Shown: piece by piece, positions 48,101 through 54,100 of the stretch
How the letters are laid out: each line of letters begins with the position of its first letter
Numbering within the stretch: the first letter of the stretch is position 1
Assembly (NCBI RefSeq): GCF_056712565.1
Contig: NZ_CM160072.1
Strand: one strand, 5' to 3'
Length of the DNA stretch: 64,000 bases
Made by a program: the position numbers

Positions 48101-51100
48101 GGCTTACCGTTTACGCTTTCCAGCACAAAGCGATGATGCTGTAGCTGTTCTGGCGTTACAGCAATTTTGTCACTACTTACACATCCCGCCATCAGCAGGC
48201 TTAGCGCAACAAGCGCGGCTACTTTCTTCATTGTGGTTCTCAATTACTGTTTCTGATTCAGGACTATTTTAAGAATAGAGGATGAAAGGTCTTTGGGGAT
48301 TATCTGAATAAGCTCCCCTGGAATGCAGGGGAGCGGCAAGATTAAACCAGTTCGTTCGGGCAGGTTTCGCCTTTTTCCAGATTGCTTAAGTTTTGCAGCG
48401 TAGTCTGAGAAATACTGGTCAGAGCTTCTGCTGTCAGGAATGCCTGGTGCCCGGTAAACAGCACGTTGTGGCAGGCAGACAAGCGACGGAATACGTCATC
48501 CTGGATCACGTCGTTGGATTTATCTTCAAAGAACAGATCGCGTTCGTTCTCATACACGTCCATACCCAACGAACCAATTTTCTGATTTTTCAGCGCTTCA
48601 ATTGCCGCCTGAGAATCAATCAATGCACCGCGACTGGTATTGACGATCATCACGCCATTTTTCATCTGATCGAAGGCGGCTTCGTTCAACAGATGGTAGT
48701 TTTCCGGTGTCAGCGGGCAGTGCAGAGAGATAACGTCTGATTCAGAGAACAGGGTTGGCAGATCGACATACTCCACACCGAGTTCCAGCGCCGCCGCACT
48801 TGGATACGGATCGAACGCCAGCAGACGCATACCAAAACCTTTCAGAATGCGCAGCATCGCCACACCGATTTTACCGGTACCGATAACGCCTGCCGTTTTG
48901 CCATACATAGTAAAGCCGGTCAGACCTTCCAGAGAGAAGTTAGCGTCACGGGTACGCTGATACGCGCGGTGAATACGGCGGTTCAGCGTCATCATCATAC
49001 CGATGGCGTGTTCAGCAACGGCCTCTGGATCATAGGCTGGAACACGGACTACTTTGAGCCCCAGTTCTTTTGCCGCGTCAAGGTCGACGTTATTGAAACC
49101 GGCACAGCGCAAGGCGATATATTTAACGCCGTGCTTTTTCAGCTCTTCCAGCACCGGGCGGCTGCCGTCATCGTTTACGAAAATACATACCGCTTCGCAG
49201 CCATTGGCAGTTTTAGCGGTTTTTTCCGTCAGCAGAAAGTCAAAAAATTCCAGCTCAAAGCCAAAGGACTCGTTCACCTGTTGCAGGTACTTCTTGTCGT
49301 ACTGTTTTGTGCTATAAACGGCGAGTTTCATAAGACTTTCTCCAGTGATGTTGAATCACATTTAAGCTACTAAAAATATTTTACAAAATTTCAAATATAA
49401 TTGAAAGATATGGCGATATTGAAAAATTCATCAACAACTATGCTTAGTGTAGGCGCAACCTTCAACTGAACGGTTAAACATGCCACAATACCCGTATTGA
49501 ATGCTTAATTTTTCGCTAAATCAGGATATTAACTACCCATGCTGGGTAAATATAAAGCCGTTCTCGCGCTGTTATTACTGATTATTCTTGTGCCGTTAAC
49601 GCTGCTGATGACGCTCGGGCTGTGGGTTCCCACGCTGGCGGGCATCTGGCTACCGCTCGGGACACGTATTGCATTAGATGAAAGCCCACGCATTACGCGT
49701 AAAGGTTTAATCATCCCCGATCTCCGTTATCTGGTGGGAGATTGTCAGCTTGCGCATATCACCAACGCCAGCCTTTCACATCCCAGTCGCTGGTTATTGA
49801 GCGTCGGCACGGTAGAACTTGATTCTGCTTGTCTGGCGAAATTGCCGCAGACGGAGCAATCGCCAGCCGCTCCAAAAACCCTCGCGCAGTGGCAGTCCAT
49901 GCTGCCTAACACCTGGATCAATATCGATAAACTGATTTTTTCTCCCTGGCAGGAATGGCAGGGAAAACTCTCTCTCGCATTAACCTCCGATATCCAGCAA
50001 CTGTGTTATCAGGGCGAAAAAGTTAAATTTCAAGGCCAGCTGAAAGGGCAACAACTTACAGTCAGCGAACTGGATGTCGCCGCGTTTGAAAATCAGCCGC
50101 CGGTAAAACTGGTGGGGGAATTTACTATGCCGCTCGTGCCGGATGGACTTCCGGTAAGTGGTCATGCTACTGCGACGTTAAACTTACCGCAGGAGCCTTC
50201 ACTGGTGGATGCCGAGCTGGACTGGCAGGAAAATAGCGGGCAATTGATTGTGCTGGCACGGGATAACGGCGATCCGTTGCTCGATTTGCCGTGGCAAATT
50301 ACTCGTCAACAATTGACCGTAAGCGATGGTCGCTGGAGCTGGCCGTATGCAGGTTTTCCTTTAAGTGGCCGACTGGGTGTTAAAGTCGACAACTGGCAGG
50401 CAGGGCTCGAGAACGCTCTGGTCAGCGGGCGACTGAGTGTGCTGACCCAGGGGCAAGCGGGTAAAGGCAACGCGGTGTTAAATTTTGGCCCAGGAAAATT
50501 AAGCATGGATAACAGCCAGCTGCCTCTGCAGCTGACCGGTGAAGCGAAACAGGCGGACCTCATTTTATATGCCCGTTTACCTGCGCAGCTAAGTGGAAGT
50601 CTGTCTGACCCAACGCTGACCTTTGAGCCTGGCGCGTTACTTCGTTCAAAGGGAAGAGTCATTGATTCGCTGGACATCGATGAAATCCGCTGGCCTTTAG
50701 CGGGTGTAAAAGTCACCCAACGTGGTGTTGACGGACGTTTGCAGGCCATTTTGCAGGCGCATGAAAATGAACTGGGCGATTTCGTGCTGCATATGGATGG
50801 GCTGGCGAATGATTTTCTCCCTGACGCTGGCCGCTGGCAGTGGCGCTACTGGGGAAAAGGGAGTTTTACACCGATGAATGCCACCTGGGATGTCGCAGGA
50901 AAAGGTGAGTGGCATGACAGCACGATTACGCTGACCGATCTCTCCACCGGTTTCGACCAGTTACAATACGGTACGATGACGGTAGAAAAGCCGCGATTAA
51001 TTCTCGACAAGCCCGTCGTCTGGGGACGTGACGCACAGCATCCCTCCTTCAGCGGCGCTCTGTCACTGGACGCCGGGCAAACGCTGTTCACTGGCGGCAG

Positions 51101-54100
51101 TGTGTTACCGCCATCAACCTTAAAATTTAGTGTCGATGGGCGTGATCCGACGTATTTCCTCTTTAAAGGCGATTTACATGCTGGTGAGATTGGCCCGGTT
51201 CGGGTAAATGGTCGCTGGGACGGTATTCGTCTGCGCGGTAACGCCTGGTGGCCTAAACAATCACTGACTGTATTCCAGCCGCTGGTGCCACCCGACTGGA
51301 AGATGAACTTACGCGATGGTGAACTGTATGCTCAGGTTGCATTTTCAGCTGCGCCTGAACAAGGATTCCGCGCGGGGGGGCACGGCGTATTGAAAGGCGG
51401 TAGTGCCTGGATGCCAGATAATCAGGTTAACGGTGTCGATTTTGTCCTGCCTTTCCGTTTTGCCGATGGAGCCTGGCATCTGGGGACTCGCGGTCCCGTT
51501 ACGTTGCGAATTGCCGAAGTGATTAATCTGGTGACAGCGAAAAATATTACGGCTGATTTGCAAGGTCGTTATCCGTGGACTGAAGAAGAACCATTGCTGT
51601 TGACTGATGTTAGCGTCGATGTGTTAGGCGGTAACGTGCTGATGAAACAATTACGTATGCCGCAACATGACCCGGCGCTGTTGCGGCTGAATAATCTTTC
51701 CTCCAGCGAACTGGTTAGCGCCGTCAATCCGAAACAATTCGCCATGTCCGGGGCATTTAGTGGTGCATTGCCGTTATGGCTAAACAACGAAAAATGGATA
51801 GTGAAAGACGGCTGGCTGGCAAATAGCGGGCCGATGACCTTGCGGCTGGATAAAGACACCGCAGATGCGGTGGTGAAAGACAATATGACCGCGGGTTCAG
51901 CAATTAACTGGTTGCGCTATATGGAAATTAGCCGTTCATCGACAAAAATTAATTTAGATAATCTCGGTTTATTAACCATGCAGGCCAATATTACAGGTAC
52001 CAGTCGCGTTGATGGTAAAAGCGGTACGGTAAATCTTAATTACCATCATGAAGAGAATATTTTTACGCTGTGGCGCAGTTTACGCTTTGGCGATAATCTC
52101 CAGGCATGGCTGGAGCAGAACGCGCGTCTGCCGGGAAATGACTGTCCGCAAGGAAAAGAGTGTGAGGATAAACAATGAAAATTTTACTGGCTGCGTTGAC
52201 GTCATCTTTTATGCTGGTTGGCTGTACGCCTCGCATTGAAGTCGCTGCACCTAAGGAACCGATCACTATCAATATGAACGTTAAAATTGAGCATGAGATC
52301 ATCATCAAGGCAGACAAAGATGTCGAAGAGCTGCTTGAGACCCGTAGCGATCTTTTTTGAGGTGATGATGAAAAGAACATTACTTCTTTGTGCATTTCTT
52401 GTTGGCTTGGTAAGCAGCAATGTAATGGCATTGACTCTGGATGAAGCCAGAACTCAGGGGCGGGTAGGCGAAACATTTTATGGTTATCTGGTTGCGCTGA
52501 AAACAGATGCTGAAACTGAGAAATTAGTAACCGACATCAATGCCGAACGTAAAGCGAGCTATCAACAACTGGCAAAGCAGAATAATGTGTCGGTGGATGA
52601 TATCGCGAAACTCGCCGGGCAAAAGCTTGTAGAACGGGCCAAACCCGGGGAATATGTACAAGGGATAAACGGTAAATGGGTGCGAAAATTTTAATAGCAA
52701 AACCGCAATATCGGGATAACGCTACAGGAGAAGACGATTAATCTATTTTCCGGAAACATTTTTCTCTTTTAATTATAAGGATGAGTTATGTTTCCGCTCT
52801 AATTTATTTATTCGAGTATTGATTTTATACCCTTTTTTCATTAAATAAATATCTATGTGACGCATTTGAATTTATAATTTATATAATATACATAATTTGT
52901 ATGTTTCGCGGGTTTATTTATTTCTCTGTATTATAAATCCAGATTGTCAGAGAATATGTTTGATTAGGTAACAATCTACTGGCAATATTGGACGTCCTCT
53001 ATGTTTTAAATAATCAATTGGTCGGGTCAGGGTATCCGACCTTCTTTATATTCGCCAGAAGGATTTATTATGCAAAGGAAAACTCTATTGTCGGCCTGTA
53101 TTGCATTAGCTCTGAGTGGTCAGGGTTGGGCGGCAGATATTACAGAAATAGAAACCACCACAGGTGAAAAGAAAAATACCAATGTGACTTGTCCAGCAGA
53201 TCCTGGAAAACTCAGTCCAGAAGAGCTTAAACGCTTACCCTCTGAATGCTCCTCTGTAGTCGAACAGAACCTGATGCCATGGCTTGTCACAGGTGCTGCT
53301 ACTGCGTTAATCACAACCTTAGCCATAGTGGAACTAAACGACGATGATGATCATCATCGCAATAATTCTCCACTTCCACCAACTCCACCTGATGATGATT
53401 CAGACGACACTCCAGTTCCTCCAACTCCTGGCGGAGATGAGATAATACCAGACGATGGTCCGGATGATACCCCGACGCCTCCCAAACCGATTGCGTTTAA
53501 TAATGACGTTATCCTCGATAAAACAGAAAAAACGTTAACTATTCGCGATTCAGTTTTCAGTTATACCGAGAATGCTGATGGGACTATTTCTCTGCAAGAT
53601 AGCAATGGGCGTAAGGCGACTATTAATCTTTGGCAGATTGATGAAACGAATAACACGGTTGCCCTTGAAGGGATGAGCGCAGATGGTGCAACGAAGTGGC
53701 AATATAATCACAACGGTGAGCTCGTTATTACGGGCGACAATACCACAGTAAACAACACTGGAAAAACCATCGTCGACGGCAAAGGCGCCACCGGAACTGA
53801 AATCGCGGGTAACAACGCGGTGGTGAATCAGGACGGCGAGCTGGATGTGAGCGGCGGCGGTCACGGGATTGATATCACCGGCGACAGCGCAACTGTGGAC
53901 AACAAAGGCGGCATGACTGTCACCGATCCGGATTCCATCGGTATTCAGATCGACGGCGACAAGGCGGTTGTCAATAAGGACGGTGACAGTGCCATCAGCA
54001 ACGGTGGCACCGGCACGCAGGTTAACGGCGACGAAGCCACCGTGAACAATAACGGCAGCACCACCGTTGACGGCAAGGATTCCACGGGCACCGAGATAAA

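What the first reader, a model, noticed from the sequence alone, without database searches (positions are those of the whole stretch)
49539..52694. ydbH–ynbE–ydbL compact operon with overlapping/adjacent start-stops
An AsmA-like large envelope protein gene overlaps a small lipoprotein gene by 4 nt (ATGA), followed 5 nt later by a periplasmic DUF1318 gene. This is the organisation expected for a translationally coupled envelope lipid-homeostasis module. The likely ydbL start (52365) is downstream of the track start (52287), which would otherwise overlap ynbE.
Basis: partly seen in the sequence, partly recalled or inferred. Interest (0 to 1): 0.2.

Follow-up and report, generated by a model that had tools for sequence, protein, structure and literature searches.

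The report
Known ydbH–ynbE–ydbL lipid-bridge operon

Summary
The window is E. coli, 100% identical here to ExPEC/APEC strains. ydbH is 49539-52178 and ynbE is 52175-52360; they share ATGA at 52175-52178, as described.

Both the module and its coupling are published. YdbH-YnbE form an inner-to-outer-membrane phospholipid bridge and YdbL modulates YnbE (PNAS 2024; bioRxiv 2026; PDB 28oj). Termination-reinitiation coupling of ydbH/ynbE was shown experimentally (Huber 2019).

- In 69 of 79 related species that frame is closed by a stop.
- Substitutions there follow the ynbE frame.
- No public record carries the 135-aa form.

- The ATG at 52368 is present in 60 of 79 loci and invariant in all 52 distinct alignable sequences.
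- The ATG at 52365 occurs in only 28 loci and never alone.
- Shine-Dalgarno spacing, the K-12 RefSeq record and PDB numbering all fit 52368.

The ynbE stop sits inside ydbL's Shine-Dalgarno sequence (TGAGG, 65 of 79 loci).

A 9-bp helix that masks the ydbL start is Escherichia-specific and not conserved elsewhere.

Verdict: real, ordinary, already known.

The parts
49332..49538 (+). ldhA-ydbH divergent intergenic region, presumed to hold the operon promoter and 5' UTR. It contains a weak AGGA at 49523-49526, 12 nt upstream of the ydbH ATG.
   Evidence: Sequence. No sigma-70 consensus match at the scan threshold. Anti-SD duplex only -4.1 kcal/mol. The promoter is not located here.
49539..52178 (+). 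ydbH: 879-aa inner-membrane-anchored AsmA-like bridge-type phospholipid transport protein.
   Evidence: ORF. RefSeq CDS in an identical strain. Pfam PF11739 over residues 14-862, E 1.4e-289. NCBIfam equivalog NF007971, 1400 bits against a cut-off of 824. A single hydrophobic segment at residues 8-26. Eight amino-acid differences from K-12.
52164..52168 (+). GAGGA Shine-Dalgarno motif for ynbE, inside the 3' end of ydbH, 6 nt upstream of the ynbE ATG.
   Evidence: Sequence. Anti-SD duplex -6.0 kcal/mol. A GAGGA/AAGGA motif is visible at the same place in most species loci listed. [quoted passage not shown]
52175..52178 (+). ATGA: the ynbE start codon overlapping the ydbH stop codon (termination-reinitiation site).
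   Evidence: An RTGA overlap in 60 of 76 species loci and a TAATG overlap in 9. Strong coupling shown experimentally for K-12 ydbH/ynbE.
52175..52360 (+). ynbE: 61-aa outer-membrane lipoprotein precursor. Lipobox LVGC is at residues 14-17 (52214-52225), and the +2 residue is Thr.
   Evidence: ORF. Pfam PF13617, 59.3 bits against a cut-off of 25.8. Identical to K-12 YnbE. A lipobox-like motif was found in 74 of 76 orthologue translations; the other two carry LLAGC further in, because the longest-ORF start was used for them.
52358..52366 (+). TGAGGTGAT: the ynbE stop codon fused to the ydbL Shine-Dalgarno sequence (GAGGTGAT is complementary to the 3' end of 16S rRNA).
   Evidence: Sequence. Anti-SD duplex -6.9 kcal/mol. 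TGAGG in 65 of 79 loci and invariant in the 52-sequence alignment. Replacing TGAGGTGATG with a strong RBS raised YdbL levels.
52365..52367 (+). It is a non-conserved alternative and lies within the extended SD pairing.
   Evidence: ATG here in only 28 of 79 loci and never without the +8 ATG. Variable column in alignment A2. The 109-aa form is annotated on 80 contigs.
52368..52694 (+). ydbL: 108-aa periplasmic DUF1318 chaperone-like protein precursor. Signal peptide is residues 1-21 (52368-52430); the mature protein starts LTLDEAR.
   Evidence: RefSeq CDS. Pfam PF07027, 108.8 bits. PDB 28oj_A matches residues 22-108, E 1.8e-51. ATG present in 60 of 79 loci and invariant in A2. Signal peptide 1-21 by SignalP in the bioRxiv 2026 paper.
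52287..52364 (+). Upstream extension of the ydbL reading frame from TTG 52287 (the 'track start'). It is not coding in this frame; it is the 3' part of ynbE read out of frame.
   Evidence: In-frame stop in 69 of 79 species loci. Substitutions concentrate at ynbE third positions: 0.574 against 0.225 and 0.151. No SD: +0.4 kcal/mol. The 135-aa product is absent from a collection of about 15 billion proteins.
52299..52307 (+). 5' arm (UCAUCAUCA, the ynbE Ile-Ile-Ile codons) of an Escherichia-specific 9-bp helix. Its 3' arm is 52363-52371 (UGAUGAUGA), which covers both ydbL ATGs.
   Evidence: MFE fold. Duplex -11.9 kcal/mol. Not conserved outside Escherichia: 63.5% of cells paired against a shuffle mean of 63.2%, and RNAalifold predicts no pairs.

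Best explanation
The region is the E. coli ydbH-ynbE-ydbL operon.

Function (from published experiments):
- YdbH is an AsmA-like protein anchored in the inner membrane by one N-terminal helix, with a periplasmic beta-groove.
- YnbE is a 61-aa outer-membrane lipoprotein that stacks on the C-terminus of YdbH. Together they form an intermembrane bridge that helps carry phospholipid to the outer membrane, redundantly with TamB and YhdP.
- YdbL is a periplasmic DUF1318 protein that binds the C-terminal helix of YnbE and limits its multimerisation. The YdbL:YnbE ratio matters, because excess YdbL is toxic when YdbH-YnbE is the only bridge left.

How the gene layout serves that stoichiometry:
- ynbE is translated by ribosomes that terminate ydbH at TGA 52176-52178 and reinitiate at ATG 52175, helped by the intragenic GAGGA at 52164-52168. 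This was shown for K-12.
- ydbL most likely starts at ATG 52368, 7 nt after the ynbE stop. That stop is the first part of the ydbL Shine-Dalgarno sequence (TGAGGTGAT). Ribosomes finishing ynbE therefore probably restart on ydbL. This last step is inferred.
- Neither TTG 52287 nor, most likely, ATG 52365 is the main start.
For: Identity:
- 100% DNA identity to annotated E. coli chromosomes, with the locus present in 5417 of 5426 complete genomes.
- RefSeq CDS coordinates.
- Pfam and NCBIfam matches far above their cut-offs.
- YnbE is identical to K-12; YdbL differs at 3 residues and YdbH at 8.
- PDB 28oj_A is YdbL.

Function:
- PMC11126948, bioRxiv 10.64898/2026.03.16.712125, and the abstract of PMC8593681 as listed.

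ydbH to ynbE coupling:
- Huber et al. 2019 tested ydbH/ynbE directly. A premature stop upstream abolished downstream translation, and the SD was strictly essential.
- The window differs from K-12 at only 2 of 130 nt in their -99..+30 fragment, and neither change is in the SD or the ATGA.
- The overlap is conserved in 69 of 76 species loci.

ydbL start:
- ATG at the 52368 position in 60 of 79 loci; ATG at the 52365 position in 28 and never alone.
- TGAGG and ATG 52368 are invariant in the 52-sequence alignment.
- The SD core is 4-5 nt from 52368 and only 1-2 nt from 52365.
- The 52287 extension is closed by stops in 69 of 79 loci and evolves in the ynbE frame.

Synteny:
- All loci with enough upstream contig carry ydbH-ynbE-ydbL in this order, except L077.
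Against: - No start-site experiment for ydbL was found. Two ribosome-profiling / N-terminomics sources gave nothing for these genes.
- The N-terminus of the precursor cannot be read from the mature protein, because the signal peptide is cleaved.
- Public annotation is split between the 108-aa and 109-aa forms.
- ynbE to ydbL coupling is only suggested in the literature: a FLAG insertion at the ynbE 3' end may lower ydbL translation. With a strong own SD (-6.9 kcal/mol), de novo initiation is equally possible.
- No promoter or intrinsic terminator for the operon was located by the consensus scans.
Confidence: 0.9

Rival explanations
1. ydbL initiates at ATG 52365 (the reader's choice; 109-aa precursor MMKR..., 4-nt spacer after the ynbE stop), either exclusively or together with 52368.
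For: It is an in-frame ATG and the one closest to the ynbE stop, which a reinitiating ribosome would meet first. The 109-aa form of this exact sequence is annotated on 80 contigs, and MMK... forms are common in E. coli, E. albertii and Salmonella records. ATGATG is present in 28 of 79 species loci.
Against: The codon is not conserved: ACG, AAG, ATA, ATC, AGG, CGG, GCC, ACC or AAA in the other same-geometry loci, including the close relative E. whittamii. It never occurs without the 52368 ATG. It lies inside the extended SD pairing GAGGTGAT, only 1-2 nt after the GAGG(T) core, which is far below the roughly 5-nt optimal aligned spacing (my knowledge of Chen et al. 1994, not checked here). K-12 RefSeq, the PDB numbering and the published constructs use 52368. 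A construct in which TGAGGTGATG, including this ATG, was replaced still made functional YdbL.
Confidence: 0.2
2. ydbL initiates at TTG 52287 (the ORF-track start), giving a 135-aa protein whose first 24 codons and part of a 25th (74 nt) overlap ynbE out of frame.
For: It is the first start-type codon of the open frame in E. coli. The frame stays open back to this position in 10 of 79 species loci, mostly Escherichia and a few Citrobacter and Klebsiella.
Against: An in-frame stop closes the extension in 69 of 79 loci. The extension's translation is not conserved and substitutions follow the ynbE frame. There is no SD: +0.4 kcal/mol. The extension would place 27 mostly polar or charged residues in front of the signal peptide. 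The 135-aa sequence is not present in a collection of about 15 billion proteins. DUF1318 homology starts at residue 45 of that ORF.
Confidence: 0.01
3. ydbL is translated independently of ynbE. Free ribosomes bind its own strong Shine-Dalgarno sequence de novo, and the 7-nt spacing to the ynbE stop is mere genome compaction rather than a coupling device.
For: The SD GAGGTGAT is strong (-6.9 kcal/mol). In Huber et al. one of five overlapping pairs (bioBF) showed no coupling and another only about 60%. No conserved RNA structure masks the ydbL start across genera. Spacer length varies in 19 of 79 loci.
Against: The stop codon is embedded in the SD (TGAGG) in 65 of 79 loci. The authors of PMC11126948 suggest that a tag inserted at the ynbE 3' end may reduce ydbL translation through coupling. 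YdbL:YnbE stoichiometry is functionally critical. In Escherichia a 9-bp helix sequesters both ATGs and would be opened by ribosomes translating ynbE.
Confidence: 0.35

Closest known systems
E. coli K-12 ydbH-ynbE-ydbL operon (b1381-b1383): YdbH-YnbE intermembrane phospholipid bridge with the YdbL modulator (Kumar et al. PNAS 2024; De'Ath et al. bioRxiv 2026)
   Same: Same locus next to ldhA, with the same three genes, order and junctions. YnbE is identical, YdbL differs at 3 of 108 residues and YdbH at 8 of 879. There are 86 nucleotide differences in 3363.
   Different: Only strain-level polymorphism. Downstream, K-12 has feaR/feaB/tynA, whereas this window runs straight into a ydbA-like autotransporter gene.
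Termination-reinitiation (TeRe) coupling at ATGA-overlapping gene pairs (Huber et al., Nat Commun 2019)
   Same: ydbH/ynbE was one of the five E. coli pairs tested. It showed strong coupling and an essential intragenic SD. The window keeps the ATGA and the GAGGA.
   Different: The second junction (ynbE/ydbL) is not an overlap. It is a 7-nt spacer with the stop codon inside the SD, and it has not been tested.
TamB-TamA and YhdP, the other AsmA-like bridge-type lipid transporters of E. coli
   Same: Same protein superfamily and a redundant function in outer-membrane phospholipid supply (PMC8593681 abstract as listed; PMC11126948).
   Different: YdbH is shorter and needs the small lipoprotein YnbE, rather than a beta-barrel partner such as TamA, to reach the outer membrane. 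It also has a dedicated periplasmic modulator, YdbL.

Membership tests
YdbH family (AsmA-like, Pfam PF11739 / NCBIfam NF007971) | Full-length match to the family profile above the curated cut-off | tested here: met
   PF11739: E 1.4e-289, residues 14-862 on profile positions 1-892 of 893. NF007971 equivalog: 1400 bits against a cut-off of 824.
YdbH family (AsmA-like, Pfam PF11739 / NCBIfam NF007971) | Single N-terminal transmembrane anchor, with the rest periplasmic | tested here: met
   The only 19-residue window with mean Kyte-Doolittle hydropathy above 1.6 is at residues 8-26 (2.95); there is none beyond residue 40.
YdbH family (AsmA-like, Pfam PF11739 / NCBIfam NF007971) | Repeating beta-groove fold with a hydrophobic channel | not tested
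   No structure was predicted here and no solved homologue was found by sequence. AlphaFold models are described in PMC11126948.
YdbH family (AsmA-like, Pfam PF11739 / NCBIfam NF007971) | Functional redundancy with TamB and YhdP in outer-membrane lipid homeostasis | not testable with these tools
   This is genetics, reported in PMC8593681 and PMC11126948 for K-12.
YnbE-like lipoprotein (Pfam PF13617) | Profile match above the cut-off | tested here: met
   59.3 bits against 25.8, residues 26-59 on profile positions 1-34 of 34. Identical to K-12 YnbE.
YnbE-like lipoprotein (Pfam PF13617) | Lipoprotein signal peptide with a lipobox Cys, and no Asp at +2 (outer-membrane sorting) | tested here: met
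   MKILLAALTSSFMLVGC-T: LVGC at residues 14-17 with +2 = Thr. The motif was found in 74 of 76 orthologue translations, and the other two have it further into an over-long ORF. The localisation rule is established Lol-pathway knowledge, not tested here.
YnbE-like lipoprotein (Pfam PF13617) | Encoded immediately downstream of a ydbH gene | tested here: met
   Junction geometry conserved.
YdbL / DUF1318 (Pfam PF07027) | Profile match above the cut-off, and a match to the solved YdbL structure | tested here: met
   108.8 bits against 27. PDB 28oj_A, E 1.8e-51, over residues 22-108.
YdbL / DUF1318 (Pfam PF07027) | Cleavable Sec signal peptide (periplasmic location) | tested here: inconclusive
   By eye the sequence shows MKR / TLLLCAFLVGLV / SSNVMA followed by LTLD. 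No signal-peptide predictor was available here. SignalP 6.0 gave residues 1-21 in the bioRxiv 2026 paper.
Termination-reinitiation coupled gene pair | Overlapping stop and start (ATGA or TGATG) with an SD motif inside the upstream gene | tested here: met
   ATGA at 52175-52178 and GAGGA at 52164-52168. Conserved across species.
Termination-reinitiation coupled gene pair | Translation of the downstream gene depends on translation of the upstream gene | not testable with these tools
   Shown for K-12 ydbH/ynbE by reporter fusions (PMC6728339). Untested for ynbE/ydbL.

The most novel reading that the evidence does not exclude
In Escherichia only, the ydbL initiation region is sequestered in a 9-bp helix. 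Both ATGs and the 3' part of the SD (52363-52371, UGAUGAUGA) pair with the ynbE Ile-Ile-Ile codons 55 nt upstream (52299-52307, UCAUCAUCA; -11.9 kcal/mol). If the helix forms in the cell, ydbL could be translated only when a ribosome is translating ynbE. That would hard-wire the YdbL:YnbE ratio that experiments show to be critical. The tandem ATGATG would then be kept partly as the 3' arm of this helix rather than as an alternative start. Three Kluyvera loci show a different 7-8-bp pairing between the same two sites (AUCCGCAUC with GAUGCGR, about -10.5 kcal/mol), which might be an independent solution.
Probability: 0.15. Interest if true: 0.25.

Novelty: already known. Interest (0 to 1): 0.07.

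Why it matters
The module itself matters, because it is one of three redundant routes that supply phospholipid to the Gram-negative outer membrane. All of that is already published, including the ATGA overlap and its coupling role.

This check adds only housekeeping value:
- Comparative evidence that the longest-ORF start (52287) is wrong.
- Evidence that the conserved ydbL start is the second ATG (52368).
- The observation that the ynbE stop codon is embedded in the ydbL Shine-Dalgarno sequence across Enterobacterales.

The choice between the 108-aa and 109-aa precursors does not change the mature protein.

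Tried and rejected
1. Experimental start-site data. I searched the supplements of an N-terminomics paper (PMC13245402) for ydbL, ynbE and ydbH and found no occurrences. The retapamulin-profiling preprint has no supplements held. So I found no direct start-site evidence.

2. A conserved RNA structure at the ynbE/ydbL junction. The E. coli MFE fold shows a 9-bp helix masking the ydbL ATGs. Across 52 distinct sequences, 63.5% of cells are paired against a shuffle mean of 63.2%. Sliding the partner by +3 pairs more cells (68.2%). RNAalifold predicts no pairs. I rejected it as a family-wide element and kept it only as an Escherichia-lineage curiosity. The 130-nt folds around both junctions are no more stable than shuffles (z = +0.84 and -0.28).

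3. Operon promoter and terminator. The consensus scan found no sigma-70-like site in the ldhA-ydbH spacer and no terminator directly after ydbL. The fold of 52680-52830 is unremarkable (z = -1.38).

4. Rfam. No RNA family match lies in or next to the operon.

5. The TTG 52287, ATG 52293, ATG 52320, TTG 52335 and GTG 52362 starts. All lie upstream of the conserved ATG. They have weak or mis-spaced SDs and fall in a frame that carries stops in most species.

6. A solved structure for YdbH by sequence search: none.

Full report
**What is there**

The + strand carries three consecutive ORFs:
- 49539-52178 (879 aa).
- 52175-52360 (61 aa).
- A third ORF ending at 52694. Its longest form starts at TTG 52287, and it has further in-frame start-type codons at GTG 52362, ATG 52365 and ATG 52368.

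The first two ORFs share ATGA at 52175-52178. The ynbE stop is TGA 52358-52360, so ATG 52365 follows a 4-nt spacer and ATG 52368 a 7-nt spacer.

The stretch 49300-52900 is 100% identical to many ExPEC/APEC E. coli chromosomes. The locus is present in 5417 of 5426 complete E. coli genomes.

RefSeq annotates ydbH, ynbE and ydbL at positions that correspond to 49539-52178, 52175-52360 and 52368-52694. K-12 has the same geometry.

Family matches are unambiguous:
- YdbH-like PF11739, E 1.4e-289, and NCBIfam equivalog NF007971 at 1400 bits.
- YnbE-like lipoprotein PF13617.
- DUF1318 PF07027.
- PDB entry 28oj_A, 'Probable chaperone-like protein YdbL', covering residues 22-108.

YnbE is identical to K-12. 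YdbL differs at 3 residues and YdbH at 8.

**Is it more than chance?**

A 4-nt ATGA overlap is common. Four other ORF pairs in this same window have one.

The arrangement here is, however, strongly conserved. I fetched 79 loci, one per species, spanning Escherichia, Salmonella, Citrobacter, Kosakonia, Klebsiella, Kluyvera, Leclercia, Pantoea, Proteus and Photorhabdus. The order ydbH-ynbE-ydbL holds wherever the contig reaches. Of 76 loci, 60 have an RTGA overlap and 9 a TAATG overlap. A GAGGA or AAGGA motif lies 6-8 nt upstream of the ynbE start in most of the junctions listed.

**What it does (from the literature)**

- YdbH, TamB and YhdP are redundant AsmA-like proteins needed for outer-membrane lipid homeostasis (PMC8593681, abstract as listed).
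- YdbH is anchored in the inner membrane, and the outer-membrane lipoprotein YnbE contacts its C-terminus to complete an intermembrane bridge (PMC11126948).
- YdbL is periplasmic. It is not strictly required, but it shapes YnbE multimerisation and is lethal in excess in a yhdP tamB mutant.
- A 2026 preprint gives the YdbL crystal structure, its interface with the C-terminal helix of YnbE, and its DegP sensitivity.
- The PNAS paper already points out the ATGA overlap, the intragenic Shine-Dalgarno motifs, and possible ynbE-ydbL coupling.
- Huber et al. 2019 used ydbH/ynbE as one of five native E. coli test pairs. They found strong termination-reinitiation coupling, with the SD strictly essential. 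The window differs from K-12 at 2 of 130 nt in their fragment, and neither change is in the SD or the ATGA.

**The ydbL start**

The 52287 start is refuted:
- In 69 of 79 species loci the ydbL frame upstream of the ynbE stop contains a stop codon, most often 25 nt before the end of ynbE.
- Within 52287-52357, divergence from the window sequence is 0.574 at ynbE third positions, against 0.225 and 0.151 at first and second positions. The DNA therefore evolves as ynbE only.
- There is no SD, at +0.4 kcal/mol.
- The 135-aa product is absent from a collection of about 15 billion proteins.

Between the two ATGs, the evidence favours 52368:
- An ATG at that position is present in 60 of 79 loci. The other 19 have different spacer lengths.
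- An ATG at the 52365 position is present in 28 loci and never alone.
- In the gap-free alignment of 52 distinct sequences, TGAGG and ATG 52368 are invariant, while 52365-52367 varies freely.
- The SD core GAGG(T) at 52359-52363 is 1-2 nt from 52365 and 4-5 nt from 52368. The extended match GAGGTGAT actually includes the A and T of the first ATG.
- The K-12 RefSeq record, the PDB numbering and the published constructs use 52368. Replacing TGAGGTGATG, which removes the first ATG, with a strong RBS still gave YdbL, and more of it.

Against a firm conclusion:
- No start-site experiment was found.
- Public annotation is split between the 108-aa and 109-aa forms.
- A reinitiating ribosome could use either ATG.

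I put about 0.8 on 52368 as the main start. The mature protein is the same either way.

**How the second junction probably works (inferred)**

The ynbE stop codon is the first part of the ydbL SD (TGAGG in 65 of 79 loci). A ribosome terminating on ynbE therefore sits on the ydbL initiation region. This fits the reported sensitivity of the system to the YdbL:YnbE ratio.

De novo initiation on the strong SD cannot be excluded.

In E. coli and its closest relatives, a 9-bp helix (52299-52307 with 52363-52371, -11.9 kcal/mol) would mask both ATGs until ynbE is translated. It is not conserved outside Escherichia and has no covariation support. I treat it as a low-probability lead.

**Verdict**

This is a real feature, correctly recognised, ordinary in layout, and already described in the literature down to the ATGA overlap. 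The one correction is that the likely ydbL start is 52368, not 52365.

Noticed in passing
window 53070-61384 (+), break near 57525-57545: The large repetitive autotransporter gene downstream of ydbL is a single 2771-aa CDS in strain ZJ3920 ('autotransported outer membrane protein involved in cell adhesion'). I take it to be the K-12 ydbA counterpart from memory; that was not tested. Here it is split into two ORFs, 53070-57545 and 57560-61384, by a 1-nt deletion (GGCAACAG to GGCACAG). There is no other difference over the 5.9 kb compared. It is either a frameshift pseudogene or a sequencing error.
   Followed up: partly
window 53550-56657 (-): A 1035-aa open frame lies antisense to the autotransporter's repeat region. 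It is most likely a mechanical by-product of the long, near-identical Gly/Asp/Thr/Asn-rich repeats on the + strand.
   Followed up: no
window 52695-53069, compared with K-12 locus L081 4708-8001: In K-12, ydbL is followed by feaR, feaB and tynA. In this window and in the identical ExPEC/APEC strains, ydbL is followed directly by the autotransporter gene after a 375-nt AT-rich spacer. The fea/tynA region is therefore absent at this position in this lineage.
   Followed up: partly
window 53020-53041 (+): A terminator-like hairpin (GGTCGGGTCAGGGTATCCGACC followed by a T-rich tail) lies 326 nt after the ydbL stop and about 30 nt before the autotransporter ATG. It could be the operon terminator or a leader element of the next gene.
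   Followed up: no
window 29566-29661 (-), 36528-36645 (+), 43607-43727 (+): Rfam matches above the gathering score: McaS/IsrA, FnrS and MicC small RNAs, as expected for this E. coli chromosomal region.
   Followed up: no
L077 (Photorhabdus heterorhabditis) 4600-5330: ydbH is absent here. ldhA is followed directly by a ynbE-like ORF with a degraded N-terminus and by a ydbL-like ORF that lacks a signal peptide; an MKKRW... start sits in another frame. This looks like decay of the whole module in this species, which would fit its redundancy with TamB/YhdP.
   Followed up: partly
L057, L066, L068 (Kluyvera), ynbE/ydbL junction: In these loci the ynbE Ile-Arg-Ile codons (AUCCGCAUC) can pair with the ydbL start region (GAUGCGA/G), at about -10.5 kcal/mol. 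This is a different sequence but the same two sites as the Escherichia helix. It may be coincidence or an independent way of masking the start.
   Followed up: no
window 7441-7444, 9705-9708, 15009-15012, 31669-31672: Four more co-directional ORF pairs in the window overlap by ATGA. Two further pairs overlap by 14 nt (3647-3660) and 7 nt (11454-11460).
   Followed up: no
window 52169: Directly after the ynbE Shine-Dalgarno motif, the window has T where K-12 has A (GAGGAT against GAGGAA; YdbH E877D). This is inside the fragment shown to drive reinitiation in K-12. The effect on coupling is unknown and probably nil.
   Followed up: no
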